From positions 182,489-214,488 of the forward strand of contig CANQYW010000001.1 in the NCBI GenBank assembly GCA_947628185.1: a DNA stretch of 32,000 nt, in the 5' to 3' direction. Each line of letters begins with the position of its first letter. The first letter of the stretch is position 1. The notes under the pieces were generated by a model. It ran no database searches, had not been told where the DNA came from, and saw nothing but the letters and a program-made list of their open reading frames with translations. This stretch comes from an uncultured Oscillospiraceae bacterium. Its GTDB lineage: Bacteria; Bacillota; Clostridia; Oscillospirales; Oscillospiraceae. Positions 20,501 through 32,000 of this stretch are shown here, piece after piece. The translations under genes and the position numbers were made by a program.

Positions 20501-20731
20501 ATGCAAGTTACCGCTACCGAATTCAAGCTGAACCTTGGCAAGTACCTGGAGCTCGTTCTGGCGGAGGACATCTGGATCACCAAAAATGGAAAAACCGTAG
20601 CTAAGCTCATTAACCCGAACATCTCCGCCGTTGACGCCATTTCCGGCGTCCTAGCCGGGAAGGTGCCCGCTGACCTCGACCGTCACGCTCTACGTGAAGA
20701 AAGGCTGTCAAAGTATGCGCTTGATGATTGA
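20501..20731 (+). CDS. Type II antitoxin, Phd/YefM-like
   Basis: 76 aa. The N-terminus VTATEFKLNLGKYLELV...IWITKNGKTVAKLI is typical of Phd/YefM antitoxins. Its stop overlaps the start region of the PIN gene. Confidence 0.75.
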   Translation: MQVTATEFKLNLGKYLELVLAEDIWITKNGKTVAKLINPNISAVDAISGVLAGKVPADLDRHALREERLSKYALDD

Positions 20732-21134
20732 CACGAACATCATCCTGGATGTCCTTATCCGCAGGGAGAATTTCTACGGCAACTCCAAAGCCGTCCTGTC
20801 CCTCTGCGAAGACCGCACTATCCAGGGGCTCGTGCCCGCCTCCGCCGTCACGGATATCTTCTATATCACCCGAAAAGCTCTCGGAAACACAGAGGACACC
20901 TACAGGGTAATTAGTTCGATCCTGAACATCGTCCGTATCCTGACAGTCACCAACGATGACGTCCTGAACGCATTCCAGGTCAAGGCAAAGGATTTTGAAG
21001 ACTGTCTGATGGCGACCTGTGCCAAATCCAACAAGTGCGACGGCATCGTCACACGGAACAAGAAGGATTTCCTGACCTTTGGCGTCACCCTTTATTCACC
21101 TGAGGAACTGCTGCAGCTCTTCGAGGAAACGTAA
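20715..21134 (+). CDS. PIN-domain ribonuclease toxin (VapC-like)
   Basis: MRLMIDTNIILDVL... (first PIN acidic motif) and C-terminal DCLMATCAKSNKCDGIVTRNKKDF. Start at ATG 20715 (alternative 20724) overlaps the antitoxin 3' end. Confidence 0.8.
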   Translation: MRLMIDTNIILDVLIRRENFYGNSKAVLSLCEDRTIQGLVPASAVTDIFYITRKALGNTEDTYRVISSILNIVRILTVTNDDVLNAFQVKAKDFEDCLMATCAKSNKCDGIVTRNKKDFLTFGVTLYSPEELLQLFEET

Positions 21135-21181
21135 GCTGTGCCCACTTTTGCGGCAGCCATACTAACACAAACCAATAATAC

Positions 21182-21213
21182 GAGCCGGGAAGTCAAATCC
21201 CGGCTCATTCTTT
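21182..21213 (+). terminator. Rho-independent terminator after the TA pair
   Basis: 9-bp stem GAGCCGGGA (21182-21190) / TCCCGGCTC (21198-21206), 7-nt loop, ATTCTTT tail. Confidence 0.7.
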
Positions 21214-21255
21214 AGTACACGACTGTAGTTTCTATAAAAAACCTTAATCAAATAC

Positions 21256-21283
21256 TTGACAATACTTTTAGCTGTATTATAAT
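21256..21283 (+). promoter_or_regulatory. Consensus sigma-A type promoter
   Basis: Exact TTGACA (21256-21261), 16-nt spacer, exact TATAAT (21278-21283), about 44 nt upstream of ATG 21327. Confidence 0.6.
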
Positions 21284-21326
21284 AACATTAATTACAATAA
21301 ATTATAAAATTTTGGAGGTGTCTACC

Positions 21327-21692
21327 ATGTTCCCAGAACATATCCCAGCGTTTGACTGTCTCGATATTCCCAGTGAGAGGCACAAGGGACGCAGATACAT
21401 AGACTATGCTGTGGCCCTGATACTCGAAGATCCGAATAAACTGCACAATGTCACAAAAGGCCTCTATGCGGAGATTGCAGAGCACTTTGGGACTACACCG
21501 GGTCGTGTGGAGCATGGTATGCGCAATGTATGCCATGCGGTGTGGAATAATAGCTCCGAACTGCTGAAAGAATGGGCCGTCTATCCTCTGAATGAGAGAC
21601 CGTGTGTGACGCGACTCCTATCCATTCTTGTGTTTCATATTAAGCAGGATGACGCGGAATTTCAGGCTCTATTATGCCAGATTCGGAGGTAA
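21327..21692 (+). CDS. Stand-alone Spo0A C-terminal (Spo0A_C-like) DNA-binding domain protein, copy 1
   Basis: By eye, ...YIDYAVALILEDPNKLHNVTKGLYAEIAEHFGTTPGRVEHGMRNVCHAVW... aligns with the Bacillus Spo0A effector domain (...[50 protein letters not shown]...). No receiver domain. ATG 21327 follows GGAGG at 21314-21318. Confidence 0.7.
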   Translation: MFPEHIPAFDCLDIPSERHKGRRYIDYAVALILEDPNKLHNVTKGLYAEIAEHFGTTPGRVEHGMRNVCHAVWNNSSELLKEWAVYPLNERPCVTRLLSILVFHIKQDDAEFQALLCQIRR

Positions 21693-21698
21693 ATAACC

Positions 21699-22037
21699 AT
21701 GGACGCGGGACATAACTCCATATTAGATCAGCTCGGCATTCGCAACGGAGAATATAAGGGCGGTGCATACACTGAGTATGCCGTTTCTTTGGTGCTCGAG
21801 GATTATAATAAGATGATAAATGTCACAAGGGTCCTCTACCCGGAGGTTGCGGAGCACTTTGGGACCACGCCGAGTTGCGTTGAGAGGGACATGCGCATGG
21901 TCGTTCAGAAAGCGTGGGAGAGAAATCCCGATCTGCTGTGCGAATGGGCGGGCTATCCCTTGAAAAGGAAACCGCCGGTGACAAGGTTTATCGCCATTCT
22001 GGCGGAATACTGCGAGCGGAACGGTATCGAGGTCTAA
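21699..22037 (+). CDS. Stand-alone Spo0A C-terminal (Spo0A_C-like) DNA-binding domain protein, copy 2
   Basis: Paralog of copy 1, roughly half identical by eye: YTEYAVSLVLEDYNKMINVTRVLYPEVAEHFGTTPSCVERDMRMVVQKAW. Its RBS GGAGG lies inside the end of copy 1. Confidence 0.7.
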   Translation: MDAGHNSILDQLGIRNGEYKGGAYTEYAVSLVLEDYNKMINVTRVLYPEVAEHFGTTPSCVERDMRMVVQKAWERNPDLLCEWAGYPLKRKPPVTRFIAILAEYCERNGIEV

Positions 22038-22104: not shown

Positions 22105-22706
22105 TTAGTCACAGAGTTTCTCGTTAAACAGTTCATAGTAGTTATCCTCATTTGCATATCTAAGATAATATCGAGTTGCATGATCTTTATGAATAATAAC
22201 ACCAGGATTCCCAACAACGATCGAATGAGACGGAATATCAAAATTAACATAAGCATTAGGGGCTATAAGAACATCATTTCCGATGTTGATATTCCCAACC
22301 ACCATTGCATTCATGCCTATCCAAACACAATTTCCTATAGTTGGGCAACCCTTTCTTTTACCACGGTTTTCCTGACCAACGGTACATCCTTTATGTAAAC
22401 TAACGCAGTTCCCTAAAATTGCCTGCGAGTTCACAGTAATCCCAAAAGCATGTCCTAAATACAAATATTTACCAATATTGGCCGTGTAGAGATCAAAACC
22501 ATATTTCTTCCCAATCACCCTAGACAGAACATGATATATCTTGGATATGATACCTTTGGAAGAATTCGACTTTCTTTGAAGAAATAAATATCTTAGTGAT
22601 GGTTCCTTAACAAAAGCCTTTACCCCCCCCCCAATTTATTTTTCTCAATTTTCTGTCCGTATTCAAATCTATACTGATGGTAATCATATTTGAAATAGCT
22701 TTTCAT
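22105..22706 (-). pseudogene. Hexapeptide-repeat (CysE/WcaB-like) polysaccharide O-acetyltransferase, frame interrupted at a G10 tract
   Basis: ATG 22706 (RBS GGAGG) opens a 28-codon frame ending in TAA immediately after the G10 run. One extra G (or two fewer) joins it to the 22105-22518 ORF. The joined product reads ...KNKLGGGVKAFVKEPSLRYLFLQRKS...VIGKKYGFDLY... plus left-handed beta-helix repeats. Confidence 0.75.
22623..22632 (-). repeat. Homopolymer tract, G10 on the coding (minus) strand
   Basis: Ten consecutive C on the + strand, counted directly. Confidence 0.95.
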
Positions 22707-22793
22707 AACAGAACCTCCGGTTAATAAATTAGCAAAAAGTTTTCTAAGTCCGACCAAATATTGTTGCGTCTATGTAATGGCGCAGTTTATGTT

Positions 22794-23906
22794 TTATAAT
22801 AGGGCCTTGTAGCGATTTAATGCCTCGGCGACTACCTGGTCCATGTCGTAATACTTGTACTCAGCGAGGCGGCCGCCGAAGATCACTTTTGTTTCGGCGG
22901 CGGCAAGTTTTTTGTACTCTGCATAAAGCGCTGTGTTCTTCTCATCGTTCACGGGATAGTAGGGCTCGTCGCCGGGTCTCCACTCTGAGCTGTATTCGCG
23001 GCTGATTACCGTTTTTGGCAGGTCGTTTCCGTTCTCGTCCTTGCCGAACTCAAACCATTTATGCTCAATGATGCGCGTCCAGGGAGTCTCGCGGTCGGTA
23101 TAGTTGACCGCCGCGTTGCCCTGGAAGTTGGGCCTATCGAGGACTTCGGTCTCAAATCGCACCGAACGATATTCCAGCGGGCCAAGCTTATAGCCGAAAT
23201 AAGCGTCGATGGGGCCGGTATAGACCACCGTCTCGGCGAGCTTGTCAAGCTCCGCCTTGTGCTCGAGGTAATCGACACCCAGCCGCACCTCGATGCCCTC
23301 AAGCATTCGTTCCACCATCTTCGTGTAGCCGCCAATGGGGATACCCTGGTAGAGGGCGTTGAAGTAGTTGTTATCAAAGGTGAACCGCACTGGAAGGCGC
23401 TTTATTATGAACGCTGGAAGGTCGCGACAGGCTCTCCCCCACTGCTTTTCCGTGTAGCCCTTAACGAGCTTTTCGTAGATGTCAGTACCCACGAGGGAGA
23501 TGGCCTGTTCCTCAAGATTTTGGGGGTTCGTGATGCCGGCGGCTCTCCGCTGTTCCTCGATCTTCGCCGCCGCCTCCTCCGGCGTCACCACGCCCCACAT
23601 GCGGTTGAAGGTGTACATGTTGAAGGGCAGAGAGTACAGTTCGCCCCTGAAGTTCGCTACGGGACTGTTCGTAAAACGGTTAAATTCGGCGAATTGGTTG
23701 AGATAGTCCCAAACTTCTTTGTTGTTCGTGTGGAAGATGTGCGCGCCGTATTTGTGGACGTTTATACCTTCGATACGCTCAGTATAGACATTCCCGGCGA
23801 TGTGAGGGCGTCTCTCCACGACGAGCACGGACTTTCCGGCGGCGTGGGCGAGGTTTGCGAATGTGGCGCCATAGAGCCCGGCGCCGACGACGAGGTAATT
23901 ATACAT
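22794..23906 (-). CDS. glf: UDP-galactopyranose mutase
   Basis: N-terminal FAD fold MYNYLVVGAGLYGATFA and characteristic ...HKYGAHIFHTN... and ...YYPVND... segments; 370 aa. Confidence 0.95.
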   Translation of the reverse strand: MYNYLVVGAGLYGATFANLAHAAGKSVLVVERRPHIAGNVYTERIEGINVHKYGAHIFHTNNKEVWDYLNQFAEFNRFTNSPVANFRGELYSLPFNMYTFNRMWGVVTPEEAAAKIEEQRRAAGITNPQNLEEQAISLVGTDIYEKLVKGYTEKQWGRACRDLPAFIIKRLPVRFTFDNNYFNALYQGIPIGGYTKMVERMLEGIEVRLGVDYLEHKAELDKLAETVVYTGPIDAYFGYKLGPLEYRSVRFETEVLDRPNFQGNAAVNYTDRETPWTRIIEHKWFEFGKDENGNDLPKTVISREYSSEWRPGDEPYYPVNDEKNTALYAEYKKLAAAETKVIFGGRLAEYKYYDMDQVVAEALNRYKALL

Positions 23907-23928
23907 AGCGATTTTCCTTTACATTTAC

Positions 23929-24984
23929 TCACTTATTTTGTTCTGATTCGACCATCTTCTGATCTAACAACTCGGCCACTCTCCCCTCCTGTCCTCGGGA
24001 AACCATAATGGCATCTTTACTGAAACGGTCTATCTTCCACTGGTTATAACCAGCTCCAACCGTCTCCTGATCGGATCTTAACGTGACGTCGCCGCCAAAC
24101 AGGGCCCTCCCCTTCATCTCGCTGTAGTACAGGGTCTTGCCCTCCACGGCATACATCACCGTTAGTAGATCCCAACTGCTTCGCGTAAAACCATTCTGTT
24201 TATTGCTGTAGAGCTCGTAAGCGGCTCTTACCGGGTTATTTTCACTTAATTCGCCTATTCTTTTCCCGGTCATAACGGATTCGCCTATTTCGTAACCGCA
24301 CCACATGATATGGGCGGGGAAATTTTGTGATACGAACTCGGCCGCCTCAGGCGCCAGACTGATATTGTACTCCCCCTGCGGTTTTGATTCCGGAAACTGC
24401 CCACCCATTATGACGCACAACTTTACTTTCTTCCTCACAAGGTCTACGCCATTTAGCGAACTATGTGAATCTCCCTCAGAGCGCAATAGATCATACAGAT
24501 TATTGAGCGGCCCCACCACTACGATCACCACGCTGCCATTGTCCGCGCCCGCGAGGCATTTGCGATAGACATCTACAGCCGATCCCGCATTTTTGTCTGA
24601 AAGAATATCATTTTCAAAGTTCTCGGATATGTATTTCTGATACCTCGACGTACCCTTGTCCGGGCAATCGGGAGATATCCCTATTGGAATATCAGGTAAA
24701 CCATAGTAGGTGTTTATTGCGTCAATACATGGCGCCGTATAGCCTGTATTACAGGAGCCGACAGCCGCCAAAAGTTCAGCTCTGCCCTCCCGAATGTACG
24801 AATGGAGGATCGCGAGCGCGCCTACGTCGTCCACATCAGTGTCCATATCTGTATCAAAAATAATTTTCACTGTCTCGTCAGGCGTGTATCTATATGCTCC
24901 AAGTTCCTTCCTGGCGCACACTCCCACAAGCAATACAAATATAGACACCGCAAACAATATACCGATAAACCGCTTTTTACTCAT
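23929..24984 (-). CDS. Membrane-anchored or secreted nucleoside-hydrolase-fold (IUNH-like) protein
   Basis: N-terminal hydrophobic anchor FIGILFAVSIFVLLVGV, then the aspartate cluster IFDTDMDTDVDDVGALAILH typical of inosine-uridine nucleoside hydrolase-like proteins. Confidence 0.6.
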   Translation of the reverse strand: MSKKRFIGILFAVSIFVLLVGVCARKELGAYRYTPDETVKIIFDTDMDTDVDDVGALAILHSYIREGRAELLAAVGSCNTGYTAPCIDAINTYYGLPDIPIGISPDCPDKGTSRYQKYISENFENDILSDKNAGSAVDVYRKCLAGADNGSVVIVVVGPLNNLYDLLRSEGDSHSSLNGVDLVRKKVKLCVIMGGQFPESKPQGEYNISLAPEAAEFVSQNFPAHIMWCGYEIGESVMTGKRIGELSENNPVRAAYELYSNKQNGFTRSSWDLLTVMYAVEGKTLYYSEMKGRALFGGDVTLRSDQETVGAGYNQWKIDRFSKDAIMVSRGQEGRVAELLDQKMVESEQNK

Positions 24985-25005
24985 ACAACTTGCTCCGATG
25001 TACGC

Positions 25006-26430
25006 TCACAGTCTCCCGCGATACTTTGAGATCTTTTGAAGGATCTCAGTTAGTTCCCTCCGATTTGCGACCAGGTATACGCAATACACCGCAAAATATA
25101 TGATCCCGGCTTTCCAGAGGCTGAAACACATATTTGCCGCGATAAACACCGCGGACAGGACGCACTCCCAGGCCGTGACTCCGTCCATGGAGATCCGGTA
25201 GTTTCTCGATATCGCCATATTCGCTAAGATGCTCCTCAGCGCCACGCAAAACACCATTGCCAGCACCAATGCGTTCAAACTTTTAACGACAAACACACTC
25301 ACAGCGCAGAGCACGGTGCTCGTCACGAGGGAAACTGCGTTTATCGCCAAAAGGCTCCTCTCTTTTCGGAGAACTTTCAGGTATGTGGAGTACAAAAGCT
25401 GCATTTTTCCGTCAAAAACGCACACCGGAAGGAGCCAGGACATGTAACCGAGGCTCACCTCGTACTGGGGCAGCCACATGCCCAGGAGTTTCCTCATGGG
25501 TATGAACAGCACCATGACGAAACAGAGAAGAAAACTCGAATTCTTCCTGAGTGACACAAAGAGCTGTTTTGCCTTGTCCGGCTCGATCTGTCTCAGGGCC
25601 GGGAACATGACCATGCTCACCTGTGATATGAACTGTAAAAAGAAGTTCGTCAGGGAAATGGCAAAGGACAATAGCCCAAACTCCGTTATGGTCTGGGTCA
25701 TGTCCACAAAGATCCGCCCGATGCCGAGGATGAGACTGCTGGCTATATTGGATACTGTCAGATTTATCCCGACCCGGATATTTATCCAAGCCTCCCGCAG
25801 GGACCTACCGGGTGATACGCCGCCCGCGAAGATGAAACTCCGGCTCTTTATGAGGCAATAGAGCGACGCCGCAAGCTGGGACACCACAAAAAGGACGATA
25901 TAGATCTCGAACCGCCTCTGGCGCGTAAAGAGCAGAAAGGCGATGCAGAGGATGAAGGCCACCTTGGAGATGATAGTCGAGAGCGAGTAGACCCTCGTCC
26001 TGTTCGCCGCCTGATAGACGTACCCCCAGAACCAACAGGTGTTGGCAAGGAGCAGATAGACGGCTATGCAGATCCACACGAGCCGGCGCTCCGGCGAGGC
26101 AGTGGTGAGCACGACGACCGGCAGCAGGACGGCGCAGATAACCGTCTGCCAGAGCAGCATGAGCCGGTACTGGGAACCTATCAGCGGCTTATCAAGCTCG
26201 TCAAGCTCCTTCCCTCCGTAGCGAAGATATATCCCGTCCGACATCCCAAAATGGAAGAACCCCACATAACCGCTGTAGAACATGAATAGCTGCCAATAGG
26301 AGAATTGCTCCACGCCCAAAAGTTTCGGTATGAGCAGTGACGTCAGGACGCTGGCCACAAGGCTTATGGTCTGCGCCGCGAAGGCGACGGCAACATTTTT
26401 CGCAAATCTCGATGCTTTAGATTCAGACAT
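25006..26430 (-). CDS. wzx: Polysaccharide flippase (Wzx, MOP superfamily)
   Basis: 474 aa and about 12-14 TM. N-terminus ...FAKNVAVAFAAQTISLVASVLTSLLIPKLLGVEQFSYWQLF... is typical of Wzx-type flippases, and the gene lies in a glycan locus. Confidence 0.8.
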   Translation of the reverse strand: MSESKASRFAKNVAVAFAAQTISLVASVLTSLLIPKLLGVEQFSYWQLFMFYSGYVGFFHFGMSDGIYLRYGGKELDELDKPLIGSQYRLMLLWQTVICAVLLPVVVLTTASPERRLVWICIAVYLLLANTCWFWGYVYQAANRTRVYSLSTIISKVAFILCIAFLLFTRQRRFEIYIVLFVVSQLAASLYCLIKSRSFIFAGGVSPGRSLREAWINIRVGINLTVSNIASSLILGIGRIFVDMTQTITEFGLLSFAISLTNFFLQFISQVSMVMFPALRQIEPDKAKQLFVSLRKNSSFLLCFVMVLFIPMRKLLGMWLPQYEVSLGYMSWLLPVCVFDGKMQLLYSTYLKVLRKERSLLAINAVSLVTSTVLCAVSVFVVKSLNALVLAMVFCVALRSILANMAISRNYRISMDGVTAWECVLSAVFIAANMCFSLWKAGIIYFAVYCVYLVANRRELTEILQKISKYRGRL

Positions 26431-26435
26431 TTAAT

Positions 26436-29677: not shown

Positions 29678-30217
29678 TTATCCCCTGGCAAACGCCCTAT
29701 AAAACCCATCCCGTTTCGCGTCCAAGCGGTCTTTGCGGAACCTTTGGGCCTCCGCGAAATTCCGACGAGCTACGCGGAGCCGCAGGTCCGGCTCCAGCAT
29801 CTTCCGCAAAATATCCGCCAACTTCCGGTAGTCCCCTCTCGGGAACAAAAACTCCCGCTCGATTAGCTCGTAATTCCCGCCCACGTCGCAGGCGGCCACG
29901 GGACACGCCCGGCTCATGGCCTCCACTATCGAGCGGCAGAGGCCCTCGCTGAGGCTCGGGTGGACGTAGACGTCTATCCCGTCGTACCACTCAAAGGTCC
30001 TGTCGTGGGGCAGCAGGCCCAGGAGTTTCACCTGGTCCTCCACGCCCAGACGCCGGGATATATCCTCTATCCGCCCGGGGTCCCCGCCGCCGATGATCTG
30101 ATACTCTATCCCCGTAATGCCCTCGTCCTTCAGCTCTTTTATCGCCCTAATGACGGTCTCGTGGCCCTTGAACTTTAAATTCACATGGGCCGCCGTCCCG
30201 ATTATCAACTTGCTCAT
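29678..30217 (-). CDS. Free-standing GT4 (GT-B fold) C-terminal half-domain protein
   Basis: MSKLIIGTAAHVNLKFKGHETVIRAI...EGLCRSIVEAM (EX7E motif) is a paralog of the C-terminal half of the upstream GT4. ATG 30217 has RBS GAGGAAGG 5 nt upstream; the alternative ATG 30244 overlaps the upstream stop. No N-terminal Rossmann half is encoded. Confidence 0.7.
   Translation of the reverse strand: MSKLIIGTAAHVNLKFKGHETVIRAIKELKDEGITGIEYQIIGGGDPGRIEDISRRLGVEDQVKLLGLLPHDRTFEWYDGIDVYVHPSLSEGLCRSIVEAMSRACPVAACDVGGNYELIEREFLFPRGDYRKLADILRKMLEPDLRLRVARRNFAEAQRFRKDRLDAKRDGFYRAFARG
29894..29937 (-). repeat. 44-nt perfect direct repeat, copy 1 (EX7E-coding segment)
   Basis: CACGCCCGGCTCATGGCCTCCACTATCGAGCGGCAGAGGCCCTC is identical to 30467-30510. 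Confidence 0.9.
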
Positions 30218-30466
30218 AAAAACCTTCCTCAAATCGTATATCATGACCTCATATAGAGGTTGTAGAATTCATCCCGCTTGCGGTCAAGGACCGTCTTCTG
30301 GTACTTGTGGGCGCGCTCAAAGTTAAGTTTCGCGCTCCGGGCCTGCTCATCTTTCTCCATCATCCGCTTTATGCTCCCGGCGAGCCCATTTATATCGCCG
30401 GCCCTAAAGAGGCAGTCGGAGTGGACGAGCTCGTAGTTCCCGCCCACGTCGCTGGCGATCACGGGG

Positions 30467-30510
30467 CACGCCCGGCTCATGGCCTCCACTATCGAGCGGC
30501 AGAGGCCCTC
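30467..30510 (-). repeat. 44-nt perfect direct repeat, copy 2 (EX7E-coding segment)
   Basis: Identical to 29894-29937; the flanking ~115 nt are also far more similar than the rest of the paralogs. Confidence 0.9.
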
Positions 30511-30777
30511 CTGGTAGCTCGGCTGGACGTAGACGTCCACGGTATCCATCCACTGGGCCACCTGCTCGTGGGGCAGCGCCCCGATGATATGTACCTGGTC
30601 CTCGACACCCATCCGCCTACTCACACTTCTCAAATATTCGCCGGTCCCGATCCCGATGAGGTGATACTCGATGTTCGTGATCCCCTCCCGTTTCAGCCGG
30701 GCGAGGGCCTTTATGACGGTGTCCTGGCCTTTCCAGCGCACATCCAACAGCGCGGCCGTGCCTATGATTAGCTTATA

Positions 30778-30786
30778 CCCCCCCCC
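30778..30786 (-). repeat. Homopolymer tract, G9 on the coding (minus) strand
   Basis: Nine consecutive C on the + strand, counted directly. Confidence 0.95.
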
Positions 30787-31490
30787 GCGATTTTCTTCAG
30801 CCGGTTCTCCAGGATCTCGCTGTCCATATCATCCAGTTCCACATCGGAGCAGCCTATTGAGAGCCCACCGCATGGGTAGCGCTTTTGCAGGGCCTCGTCC
30901 GTCACGTACACGGCGTAGGGCACGTCCTTTAACACGCGGCGGCACTTCAATTCCCTCGGTCCCGCCACCAGCTTGCCCCGCAGGCTGTGGTACCAGAGGC
31001 CCTCCCAGGCGAACCCGGTGACCTCCACCAGGTAGACCTTGCGGTATTTCCGGGCGTACTTCAGGGCCGTACTCGTGTACACGTTGCCGACGGAGCGGAT
31101 GATCACCCGGTCCGCTTTCCTCACTTCCCGCTCTATCGTGCTGTCGATCTGGCGCCGGTACGCCAAGTTCAGGCAGTTCGCCGCCGGACGGTAGATGTCA
31201 GGCAGCGCCACCAGCGCGGAGCGGCGGGCGTCGTAGAAATTGAATCTCTCCGCCGCCTCCTGGGGGTCGTATATCCTCTGTTCACGCCTGAGAATGACCG
31301 TCAAATGGTCGCAATAGCTCCTGTAGCGTTCCCAGATATGCTCGTTGAAGTTGCTGTCGGTGTAGGCGTTCCCCTCCGTGTCGAATTTCCACCGGGACCC
31401 GCCCTGGATGAATAGCAGATTCATGCGGCAATACCTCCGGTAATGGTACTGCGGCATGAAACCGCCTGGGTGTACGGTAAATATACGAAT

Positions 31491-32000
31491 TCAAGTTCGT
31501 ATATTACCCCCCCCCGCCCCGAATTTCTTGGCGGTGTACTTCGTCTGGATCACTTTATATATCCTCCCCGCGTTGTAGGCGAAACGCATACCGAGGTATG
31601 TACACCTCGCCCCGTAAAGATTCTTCGCCCTGAGTTCCGGGGACTTGTCCCGGGCCACCACGTCGCGGTATTTAAGCAGCGAATCCCAGACCTTCTCCAG
31701 GGAGTCCGTGTCCTCCGGCGGGATTTGGATGAACACCTGGTAATTCACCGAGAAGGCCCTGGCGTAGGCGGCATCTTTAAGCGTCTCGTCATAAGCCATG
31801 ATATCCCCGACGACCCTCTCGCCCACCTTGACGCATATGAGTTTCGCCGGGGTGAACTTCATATGCACTATGCTGTCCGCGCGGACACGGTAGGCGTATG
31901 TGCGGCACTCCAGGAGCGCGATTTTTTCCGCGCGCATGAAGGCGCGGTGGGTGGTGGCGGCGTCCTCAAAGAGCCAGCCCGTTGGGAAACGCAGTCCATC
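31491..32000 (-). CDS. GT2 family glycosyltransferase, C-terminal part (partial, 5' end beyond the window)
   Basis: The frame is open to the window edge (...DGLRFPTGWLFEDAATTHRAFMRAEKIALLE...), typical of the region after the GT-A catalytic core. It ends ...KKFGAGGGNIRT*. Confidence 0.65.
   Translation of the reverse strand, partial: DGLRFPTGWLFEDAATTHRAFMRAEKIALLECRTYAYRVRADSIVHMKFTPAKLICVKVGERVVGDIMAYDETLKDAAYARAFSVNYQVFIQIPPEDTDSLEKVWDSLLKYRDVVARDKSPELRAKNLYGARCTYLGMRFAYNAGRIYKVIQTKYTAKKFGAGGGNIRT
31507..31515 (-). repeat. Homopolymer tract, G9 (then C, then G4) on the coding (minus) strand
   Basis: Nine consecutive C on the + strand, followed by G and CCCC, counted directly. Confidence 0.95.

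What the first reader, a model, noticed from the sequence alone, without database searches (positions are those of the whole stretch)
22105..22706. O-acetyltransferase split by a G10 run directly after a 28-codon leader
Seen: ATG 22706 (RBS GGAGG) reads MKSYFKYDYHQYRFEYGQKIEKNKLGGG, then TAA immediately after the tract. The frame with 11 or 8 G continues without stops through VKAFVKEPSLRYLFLQRKS... into the hexapeptide-repeat ORF at 22105-22518. As assembled, that ORF has only a GTG start and no N-terminal region. A stop placed right after the tract in the OFF frame is the classic layout of a contingency gene. O-acetylation is a common phase-variable glycan decoration that affects phage and antibody recognition.
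Basis: partly seen in the sequence, partly recalled or inferred. Interest (0 to 1): 0.7.

Follow-up and report, generated by a model that had tools for sequence, protein, structure and literature searches.

The report
Poly-G on/off switch in acetyltransferase gene
A sugar-acetylating enzyme gene in a gut bacterium's surface-polysaccharide cluster is interrupted by a run of ten G's, and relatives carry the same run at lengths that read through or break the gene, the pattern of a classical slippage on/off switch seen here in uncultured commensal Clostridia.

Summary
On the minus strand there is GGAGG (22718-22714), ATG 22706, 28 codons, G10 (22623-22632), then TAA. Eight or eleven G's give one 199/200-aa reading frame.

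The fused protein is a serine-acetyltransferase-like left-handed beta-helix enzyme. A 200-aa orthologue (86% identity, same wzx-hydrolase-glf-acetyltransferase order) reads through with G9, so the 137-aa ORF is not a normal full-length protein.

All 11 distinct genes of this clade (57-86% identity) carry G8-G11 at the homologous codons: 4 in frame, 7 out of frame. Every tract glycine codon is GGG (24/24, against 26% elsewhere in the same genes). Near-identical contigs differ essentially only in tract length: G8/G9, G7/G8 and G8/G10.

More distant relatives have G tracts at about four other positions. The same cluster in the window has a glycosyltransferase split by G9.

Verdict: a homopolymeric contingency locus, assembled OFF. 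This is a new member of a known kind (compare NeuO and Campylobacter capsule genes) in an uncultured Oscillospiraceae.

Not shown: switching within this strain, and the acetylated substrate.

The parts
22714..22718 (-). Shine-Dalgarno GGAGG, 7 nt upstream of the ATG
   Evidence: Read directly from the sequence
22620..22706 (-). 5' segment of the gene as assembled: 28 codons (MKSYFKYDYHQYRFEYGQKIEKNKLGGG) plus TAA. It corresponds to helix 1 and the linker of the full-length enzyme.
   Evidence: The leader is homologous to the N-termini of P0001, P0003, P0005 and the reconstructed relatives.
22623..22632 (-). G10 homopolymeric tract (C10 on the + strand), the proposed slippage switch. ON at G8 or G11; OFF at G9, G10 and G12.
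   Evidence: G8-G11 tracts sit at the homologous site in 11 distinct genes.
22105..22622 (-). 3' segment in the -1 frame (VKAFVKEPSLRYLF... to the stop): the rest of the N-terminal helical domain plus the hexapeptide beta-helix catalytic domain. The mechanically listed ORF is 22105-22518, starting at an internal GTG.
   Evidence: The AF2 model of the orthologue and its fold search hit serine acetyltransferases.
22105..22706 (-). Whole conceptual acetyltransferase gene (200 aa at G11). It is 35.7% GC, the last gene of the EPS operon, downstream of glf.
30778..30786 (-). Second tract in the same cluster: G9 in the inter-domain linker of a GT4 glycosyltransferase. OFF as assembled; ON at G7 or G10.
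   Evidence: The fused 394-aa protein matches 392-405-aa homologues over 98-100% of its length.
30241..31424 (-). GT4 glycosyltransferase gene split by that G9. The N-half runs to 30768; the C-half is 30241-30747. The true start is ATG 31424, with GGAGG at 31438-31434.
31507..31515 (-). Third G9 tract, 8 codons before the stop of the upstream ORF, which runs off the window end. Length changes only remodel the C-terminal tail.

Best explanation
The feature is a phase-variable (contingency) gene for a cytoplasmic, acetyl-CoA-dependent, serine-acetyltransferase-like hexapeptide acyltransferase. The enzyme most likely O-acetylates a sugar of the exopolysaccharide or capsule made by the surrounding wzx/wzy cluster.

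A run of G's on the sense strand encodes a Gly-Gly(-Gly) linker between the first two N-terminal helices. Slipped-strand mispairing during replication adds or removes G's. Lengths of 8 or 11 give the full 199/200-aa enzyme (ON). Other lengths end translation after 28 codons, here at a TAA that abuts the tract (OFF), and the catalytic domain has no ribosome-binding site of its own. The assembled consensus of this genome is OFF (G10).

Shown: the anatomy; homology of both halves to one protein; conservation of a pure G tract at this site; mixed ON/OFF states; and length differences between near-identical contigs of relatives.

Inferred: that switching is frequent and reversible in this strain; that the substrate is the EPS repeat unit; and that the benefit is variation of the surface seen by phages and the host immune system.
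For: Anatomy and the in-silico frame test.

Family assignment:
- Pfam Hexapep scores above its cut-off.
- The best NCBIfam models are EpsC, CysE and WcaB. EpsC aligns residues 29-174 to profile positions 19-166 of 168.
- PDB serine acetyltransferases align with the catalytic Asp and His in place.
- The AF2 model of the orthologue has pLDDT 90. Its lowest-confidence stretch is residues 11-30, which includes the tract-encoded glycines. Fold search returns serine acetyltransferases over 172-180 columns, so the N-terminal helices are part of the fold.

Full-length orthologue: P0001 is 200 aa, 86% identical with 100% coverage. It sits in a colinear 4.35-kb wzx-IUNH-glf-AT block and carries an in-frame G9.

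Every truncated database homologue examined (P0004, P0007, P0008, P0009, P0011) is split at a G8-G10 tract at the same site, and the 253-aa P0002 owes its N-terminal extension to the same frameshift.

Tally: 11 distinct genes, 4 ON and 7 OFF, with OFF states in both wrong frames.

Tract purity: 24/24 tract Gly codons are GGG, against 48/186 elsewhere in the same genes, across 57-86% protein identity and 31-51% GC.

Length polymorphism in near-identical DNA:
- L006 G8 vs L007 G9: 0 mismatches and 1 gap in 1228 bp.
- L035 G8 (OFF) vs L036 G7 (ON): 0 mismatches in 1152 bp; three gap openings, 9 gapped positions in all, one of them the tract.
- L044 G8 (ON) vs L083 G10 (OFF): 99.7% identity over 3365 bp with a single 2-nt gap; contig names give coverage 31x and 6x.

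Recurrence: G tracts occur at about four other positions in more distant family members and in other glycan genes of these loci, including a GT4 in this window.
Against: - No reads and no second assembly of this exact locus are available. Tract heterogeneity in this strain is therefore unobserved, and a consensus error at the homopolymer cannot be excluded for this one contig.
- Several comparison contigs have only 1.6-2.7x coverage, where homopolymer miscalls are plausible.
- About one third of the genes are ON. That is what drift among the three frames would give, so the data do not by themselves prove that switching is adaptive rather than a tolerated mutational hotspot.
- No equivalog cut-off is reached (87 bits against 150 for EpsC), so the substrate is unknown.
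- RNA-polymerase slippage on G10 could make the OFF allele leaky.
Confidence: 0.78

Rival explanations
1. Assembly or sequencing artefact. The real tract in this genome is a fixed in-frame G11 (or G8), and the frameshift comes from miscalling the homopolymer.
For: Homopolymer G runs are error-prone on Illumina, and synthetic G11 controls showed about 3-6% length heterogeneity (PMC9187656). No reads or second assembly could be checked. Many related contigs have low coverage.
Against: The window comes from a 214-kb contig. Seven of 11 independent relatives are also out of frame at the same site, in both wrong frames. A pair with 31x and 6x coverage differs by 2 nt at its tract. Even if this particular call were wrong, the conserved pure-G tract would remain.
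Confidence: 0.08
2. Plain pseudogene. An accessory, horizontally acquired gene was inactivated by a chance indel at a mutational hotspot and is decaying, with no selected switching.
For: The gene is compositionally foreign: 35.7% GC against 55-62% for its neighbours and for housekeeping genes. OFF alleles outnumber ON alleles 7 to 4, close to the neutral one third ON. One relative, L026, carries a second frameshift.
Against: Both segments are otherwise free of stops in the window and in 6 of the 7 OFF relatives. The RBS and start codon are retained. The tract stays uninterrupted (24/24 GGG) across lineages whose synonymous sites are otherwise diverged. Tracts have arisen at several other positions in the same family, which a decay model does not predict.
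Confidence: 0.05
3. Programmed recoding. The G10 allele is expressed through RNA-polymerase slippage on the G run, or through -1 ribosomal frameshifting at G GGG GGG before the TAA. The genomic OFF state would then be a constitutive low-level ON.
For: The downstream frame is -1 relative to the leader, and the stop abuts the tract. Transcriptional slippage on homopolymers is established in general (own knowledge). It is discussed for the bifidobacterial G tracts (PMC9187656).
Against: OFF relatives need different corrections, +1 in some and -1 in others, so no single recoding event fits. In-frame alleles exist with the same tract. DNA-level length differences are seen directly. G/C runs are poorer slippage substrates than A/T runs (own knowledge).
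Confidence: 0.07
4. Two genuine products: a 28-aa leader peptide and an independently initiated 137-aa catalytic fragment from GTG 22518.
For: ORF callers annotate such 131-143-aa proteins in databases, for example P0008, P0009 and P0011.
Against: There is no Shine-Dalgarno sequence at a workable distance from GTG 22518. Every such short database protein that was examined is a frameshift product of a tract-bearing gene. The family fold includes the N-terminal helices.
Confidence: 0.02

Closest known systems
NeuO, the phase-variable polysialic-acid O-acetyltransferase of E. coli K1 (prophage CUS-3)
   Same: It is a left-handed beta-helix O-acetyltransferase that decorates a capsule. It is switched ON and OFF by slipped-strand changes in a repeat placed in the 5' coding region, and in-frame repeat variants are tolerated at the N-terminus (PMC3046976).
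   Different: The NeuO repeat is a heptanucleotide VNTR (AAGACTC, 2-93 copies) starting 2 nt after the start codon, not a mononucleotide run. NeuO is prophage-borne, whereas no viral relatives of this gene were found. It belongs to a different LbH subfamily (closest structural homologue OatWY), while this protein is CysE/EpsC-like. In NeuO the repeat length tunes activity; that is untested here.
Campylobacter jejuni poly-G/C contingency loci in capsule, LOS and flagellar-glycan modification genes
   Same: Intragenic G/C homopolymers switch several surface-glycan-modifying enzymes within one biosynthesis cluster (PMC8437040, PMC8355987 and PMC3025981; abstracts). Here the AT and a GT4 in the window are split by G tracts, a third tract sits near a gene's 3' end, and AT3, MBOAT and hexapeptide genes in related loci also carry G tracts.
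   Different: The host is a Gram-positive-type, spore-former-lineage gut commensal (Oscillospiraceae) rather than an epsilonproteobacterial pathogen. The enzymes are different, and no switching rates have been measured.
Bifidobacterium breve sortase-dependent pilus G-tract switch
   Same: It is a gut commensal in which an intragenic G11-G12 tract separates two ORFs of one gene. Replication slippage restores the frame, and database annotations split the gene (PMC9187656).
   Different: That switch controls pilin genes in an actinobacterium, and was shown experimentally by maximum-depth sequencing. Here the gene is a glycan acetyltransferase and the evidence is comparative only.
Haemophilus influenzae oafA and Neisseria meningitidis oatC (phase-variable glycan O-acetyltransferases)
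   Same: O-acetylation of a surface glycan is switched on and off. For oafA this is cited in PMC11868660. That the switches are simple-sequence repeats in the coding region is from my own knowledge, as is the oatC case (Claus et al. 2004, listed as ref. 24 of PMC3046976).
   Different: From my own knowledge, oafA is a membrane acyltransferase-3 protein with a tetranucleotide repeat, and OatC is not an LbH enzyme. Both are from Gram-negative pathogens.
CysE / EpsC / WcaB serine-acetyltransferase-like acyltransferases (enzyme family)
   Same: The fold is the same: N-terminal helices plus an LbH domain. The catalytic Asp/His are aligned, and these are the best profile and structure matches.
   Different: Scores are far below every equivalog cut-off (87/150, 70/211, 57/196). 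The protein is shorter than CysE. The cluster context (wzx, wzy-like, glf, GT4) points to a sugar acceptor rather than serine.

Membership tests
Hexapeptide-repeat (left-handed beta-helix) acyltransferase, serine-acetyltransferase-like branch | Tandem hexapeptide repeats forming an LbH domain | tested here: met
   Pfam PF00132 scores 29.9 bits against a cut-off of 27. The AF2 model of the 86%-identical orthologue shows short beta strands through residues 70-172. The top 37 Foldseek hits are serine acetyltransferases.
Hexapeptide-repeat (left-handed beta-helix) acyltransferase, serine-acetyltransferase-like branch | N-terminal alpha-helical domain preceding the LbH | tested here: met
   Met only by the conceptual G8/G11 protein. 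Helices at 5-13, 24-33, 35-48 and 51-68 are predicted. The EpsC profile aligns from residue 29. The 137-aa ORF alone lacks almost all of this domain.
Hexapeptide-repeat (left-handed beta-helix) acyltransferase, serine-acetyltransferase-like branch | Catalytic His with an acidic partner about 15 residues upstream | tested here: met
   The phmmer alignment to 6wye and 4n69 places D72 and H86 of the query on the SAT '..vDihp..' and 'lDHatG' positions. H86 is invariant in the clade.
Hexapeptide-repeat (left-handed beta-helix) acyltransferase, serine-acetyltransferase-like branch | Reaches the curated score of a named equivalog (EpsC, CysE, WcaB) | tested here: not met
   Scores against cut-offs are EpsC 87/150, CysE 70.2/210.65 and WcaB 57/196. 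I therefore file it at superfamily level only; the substrate is not assigned.
Hexapeptide-repeat (left-handed beta-helix) acyltransferase, serine-acetyltransferase-like branch | Acetyl-CoA-dependent O-acetylation of a glycan acceptor | not testable with these tools
   Inferred from the family and from the wzx / wzy-like / glf / GT4 neighbourhood.
Simple-sequence-repeat contingency (phase-variable) locus | Hypermutable repeat inside the reading frame or promoter | tested here: met
   G10 occupies codons 25-28. A G>=8 run is expected about 0.002 times per gene at this composition.
Simple-sequence-repeat contingency (phase-variable) locus | Repeat-length change toggles an otherwise intact ORF | tested here: met
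   G8 or G11 gives a 199/200-aa ORF, and G9, G10 or G12 truncates it. The same holds in the relatives.
Simple-sequence-repeat contingency (phase-variable) locus | The repeat is conserved among orthologues while its length varies, with both ON and OFF alleles in nature | tested here: met
   Eleven distinct genes carry G8-G11: 4 ON and 7 OFF. All 24 tract Gly codons are GGG, against 26% elsewhere in the same genes.
Simple-sequence-repeat contingency (phase-variable) locus | Length polymorphism between otherwise identical sequences | tested here: inconclusive
   Met for relatives: L006/L007, L035/L036 and L044/L083. For this window's own allele no second assembly or reads exist.
Simple-sequence-repeat contingency (phase-variable) locus | High-frequency reversible switching in a clonal population, with a phenotype | not testable with these tools
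   This needs cultures, or error-controlled deep sequencing plus glycan chemistry.

The most novel reading that the evidence does not exclude
Uncultured gut Clostridia (Oscillospiraceae, Lachnospiraceae, Ruminococcus-like; rabbit and human gut) carry Campylobacter-style multi-locus poly-G 'phasomes' concentrated in exopolysaccharide-decorating enzymes: SAT-like acetyltransferases, acyltransferase-3, MBOAT and GT4 glycosyltransferases. Tracts would have been gained independently at four or more positions within a single acetyltransferase family and spread with horizontally transferred cassettes. If so, SSR-based combinatorial surface variation is a general strategy of commensal anaerobes rather than a speciality of pathogens.
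Probability: 0.55. Interest if true: 0.65.

Novelty: new member of a known kind. Interest (0 to 1): 0.5.

Why it matters
Homopolymer-driven phase variation of glycan-modifying enzymes is textbook for Campylobacter, Neisseria and Haemophilus. [quoted passage not shown]

Here one acetyltransferase family in commensal gut Clostridia repeatedly carries G tracts. It sits next to other tract-bearing glycan genes, and alleles in public metagenomes are both ON and OFF.

This has three consequences:
- It offers concrete loci for read-level tests of phase variation in the gut microbiota.
- It explains a class of "truncated" or oddly extended acetyltransferase entries in protein databases as annotation artefacts (P0002, P0004, P0007-P0009, P0011).
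- It warns that MAG-based calls on the presence or function of EPS genes depend on the tract state at the time of sampling.

I found no description of this in the searchable literature.

Tried and rejected
- Exact look-up of the window's 137-aa ORF in public assemblies found nothing, so no second tract call exists for this allele.
- The genome-contig scan gave one close relative only. The other hits were Chryseobacterium and Sphingobacterium homologues at 42-48% identity; none carries a tract at the acetyltransferase site, and a single G8 lies about 3.5 kb downstream in L018.
- The viral-contig scan found no relatives, so I dropped a NeuO-like prophage origin.
- Window-wide enrichment of G9 runs is not significant (11/100 shuffles). 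The statistical case therefore rests on local composition and conservation.
- The promoter and terminator scan around the gene was uninformative.
- I considered that the invariable 'TA' after the tract (G(n)TA in all clade members and in the other two window tracts) marks a recognition signal. I rejected this as a general rule, because tracts at other positions and in other genes are followed by TT, TG, AT, AG or CT. Within the clade it is a conserved GTA (Val) or TAT (Tyr) codon.
- I considered independent initiation of the 137-aa fragment and rejected it (no SD).
- My automated ON/OFF test miscalled L009 because of a loose motif. I corrected it by hand from the translations.
Whether their 'GGG'/'GG' at the junction is a G tract is unknown.

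Full report
**1. The observation**

On the minus strand the sequence reads GGAGG (22718-22714), then 7 nt, then ATG at 22706. Twenty-eight codons follow (MKSYFKYDYHQYRFEYGQKIEKNKLGGG). The last nine and a third of those codons' bases belong to a run of exactly ten G's (22632-22623), and TAA (22622-22620) follows directly.

Changing the run in silico to 8 or 11 G's gives one open frame of 199 or 200 codons that ends at 22105. Lengths of 9, 10 or 12 do not.

In the downstream frame, the ORF opens right after a TAA at 22638-22636 and contains no start codon until GTG 22518. That GTG is preceded only by an abutting AGG.

**2. What the protein is**

- The fused protein matches Pfam Hexapep above its threshold.
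- Its best NCBIfam models are EpsC, CysE and WcaB, all well below their equivalog cut-offs. The EpsC model aligns residues 29-174 to profile positions 19-166 of 168, so the alignment starts immediately after the tract.
- PDB serine acetyltransferases align over residues ~60-179, with the catalytic Asp and His in register.
- An AlphaFold model of the intact orthologue P0001 (pLDDT 90) has four N-terminal helices followed by a beta-helix. Its least confident stretch is residues 11-30, which contains the tract-encoded glycines.
- Foldseek returns serine acetyltransferases over 172-180 aligned columns, which is more than the beta-helix alone.

So the enzyme family has an N-terminal helical domain, and the 137-aa ORF lacks most of it.

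**3. Is the split real biology?**

The closest database protein, P0001, is 200 aa, 86% identical and colinear over 100% of the fused query. It lies in a MAG labelled uncultured Lachnospiraceae from a rabbit-gut study. The gene order there is the same (wzx, nucleoside-hydrolase-like gene, glf, acetyltransferase), forming a 4.35-kb block 76% identical in DNA to the window. At the homologous place it reads AAA TGG GGG GGG GTA, a G9 run in frame, in three assemblies.

I then fetched the DNA of the suspiciously short homologues:
- P0008, P0011, P0004, P0007 and P0009 (133-166 aa) are each the 3' part of a gene split at a G8-G10 run at the same site, with a homologous MxxxF(K/Q)YDYYQ leader in another frame.
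- The 253-aa P0002 owes its odd N-terminus to the same frameshift.
- P0003, P0005 and P0006 are in frame with G9, G11 and G8.

The tally is 11 distinct genes (57-86% identical to the window's protein): 4 ON and 7 OFF, with OFF alleles in both wrong frames (L009 corrected by hand).

**4. Evidence that the tract is maintained and mutable**

- These genes are 31-51% GC, and a run of eight or more G's is expected 0.001-0.01 times per gene.
- All 24 glycine codons inside the tracts are GGG, whereas only 48 of 186 glycine codons elsewhere in the same genes are GGG.
- Two assemblies of one gene (L006 and L007) are identical over 1228 bp except G8 versus G9.

The metagenome scan returned more distant relatives (41-62% identity, several from contigs labelled human gut metagenome). 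Many carry G7-G12 runs at other positions:
- after the LRYLFFLR motif;
- near the start codon;
- in the IG(x)GLY(L/I)GH turn;
- inside the beta-helix.

Among these, two pairs again differ at the tract. L035 (G8, OFF) and L036 (G7, ON) show no mismatches over 1152 bp, with three indels including the tract. L044 (G8, ON; 31x) and L083 (G10, OFF; 6x) are 99.7% identical over 3365 bp with a single 2-nt gap.

Recurrent tracts at different sites of one enzyme family argue for selection of mutability rather than for one accidental hotspot.

**5. Context**

The window is chromosomal. It carries asnS, dnaB, tilS, ftsH and a SpoVK-like gene. Its AsnRS is 80-82% identical to those of Pseudoflavonifractor, Flavonifractor and Oscillibacter, so the host is an uncultured Oscillospiraceae. 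The window comes from a 214-kb NCBI contig, and its flippase is also found in an ENA assembly of the rabbit-gut series.

The acetyltransferase is the last gene of a minus-strand polysaccharide cluster: GT genes, a wzy-like membrane protein, a HAD-like 634-aa protein, wzx, the hydrolase-like gene and glf. It is compositionally foreign at 35.7% GC, against 55% for glf and 61-62% for housekeeping genes.

Two more G9 runs lie on the same strand in the cluster. One (30778-30786) splits a GT4 glycosyltransferase in its inter-domain linker. The G7/G10 fusion gives a 394-aa protein that matches 392-405-aa homologues over 98-100% of its length, and the two closest have GGG or GG at the junction. The other (31507-31515) sits eight codons before a stop.

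Related loci carry G9-G11 runs in or next to acyltransferase-3, MBOAT and a second hexapeptide gene.

**6. Mechanism**

The best-supported reading is classical slipped-strand phase variation. The G run encodes a flexible Gly-Gly(-Gly) linker, so gains or losses of three G's are tolerated. Changes of one or two G's truncate translation after the first helix, and the catalytic domain has no initiation signal of its own. The assembled state is OFF.

What is shown is comparative: conservation of the tract, its purity, ON/OFF diversity, and length differences between near-identical contigs.

What is inferred:
- switching within this strain;
- the acceptor, probably a sugar of the EPS repeat unit, given the cluster;
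- the selective agent (phage, antibody or IgA).

The rivals are a homopolymer miscall in this contig, a decaying pseudogene, recoding by RNA-polymerase or ribosome slippage, and two separate products. I rank them low for the reasons given in their entries, but the first and third cannot be excluded without reads or cDNA.

**7. Comparison with known systems and novelty**

- The nearest analogue in logic is NeuO of E. coli K1. It is also a beta-helix capsule O-acetyltransferase switched by a 5' coding repeat, but with a heptanucleotide unit, on a prophage, and from another LbH branch (PMC3046976). No viral relatives of this gene were found.
- The nearest analogue in genome style is Campylobacter jejuni, where several poly-G tracts sit in capsule and LOS modification genes (PMC8437040, PMC8355987).
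- The nearest gut-commensal precedent is the Bifidobacterium breve pilus G tract (PMC9187656).

I found no report of such tracts in EPS genes of gut Clostridia in the searchable library. [quoted passage not shown]

I rate this a new member of a known kind. The finding is solid, the mechanism unsurprising, and the interest moderate. The interest comes mainly from the family-wide, multi-site recurrence and from the testable loci it offers for phase variation in the commensal microbiota.

Noticed in passing
window 30241-31424 (-), tract 30778-30786: A GT4 glycosyltransferase in the same cluster is split by a G9 run in its inter-domain linker (ON at G7 or G10). The fused 394-aa protein is colinear with 392-405-aa homologues, and the two closest have GGG or GG at the junction.
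   Followed up: yes
window 31507-31515 (-): A third G9 run lies 8 codons before the stop of the ORF that runs off the window end. G10 would stop right after the glycines. G8 would add a 31-residue tail that overlaps the RBS and start of the GT4 gene. The consequence is unknown.
   Followed up: partly
window 29678-30244 (-): A stand-alone 188-aa copy of only the C-terminal (Glycos_transf_1) half of a GT4 enzyme lies directly after the split GT4, with an ATGA stop/start overlap. It could be an alternative C-terminal half or a remnant.
   Followed up: no
L032-L034, L043, L045, L053, L093, L090, L035/L036, L044/L083, L089, L030, L031: More distant members of the acetyltransferase family in metagenome contigs (several labelled human gut) carry G7-G12 runs at about four other positions in the N-terminal region or first beta-helix turns. 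Both ON and OFF alleles occur, and some same-gene pairs differ in tract length.
   Followed up: yes
L028 3403-3411; L023 1871-1880; L025 1422-1432; L009 2771-2779: Other glycan-acylating genes next to the relatives also carry G9-G11 runs. These are an acyltransferase-3 gene split by G9, a G10 just upstream of another acyltransferase-3 ORF, a G11 near the 3' end of an MBOAT gene, and a G9 in a second hexapeptide acetyltransferase.
   Followed up: partly
window 22105-26431 vs L001 2267-6596: The wzx-hydrolase-glf-acetyltransferase block is shared at 76% DNA identity with a 48% GC MAG labelled Lachnospiraceae, whereas the window's host is about 60% GC and Oscillospiraceae-like. The acetyltransferase is 35.7% GC. 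The cassette looks horizontally transferred, tract included.
   Followed up: partly
database proteins P0002, P0004, P0007, P0008, P0009, P0011: These public protein entries are artefacts of gene calling on OFF alleles. Most are truncated at internal start codons, and P0002 carries a spurious 60-residue N-terminal extension.
   Followed up: yes
window 22620-22632, 30776-30786, 31505-31515; clade loci L001-L009, L023-L028: All tracts of the clade, and all three window tracts, are G on the sense strand followed by TA (a GTA or TAT codon). In several loci one OFF frame therefore hits TAA immediately. Tracts at other sites in the family are followed by other bases.
   Followed up: partly
window 20501-22037 (+): Convergent to the end of the EPS operon lie an antitoxin-like ORF, a PIN-domain toxin gene, and two tandem small genes that encode only a Spo0A C-terminal DNA-binding domain.
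   Followed up: no
L001 1938-2240: The syntenic MAG has a 100-aa hexapeptide fragment upstream of wzx that is 69% identical in DNA to part of the acetyltransferase beta-helix. It may be a remnant of a second copy.
   Followed up: no
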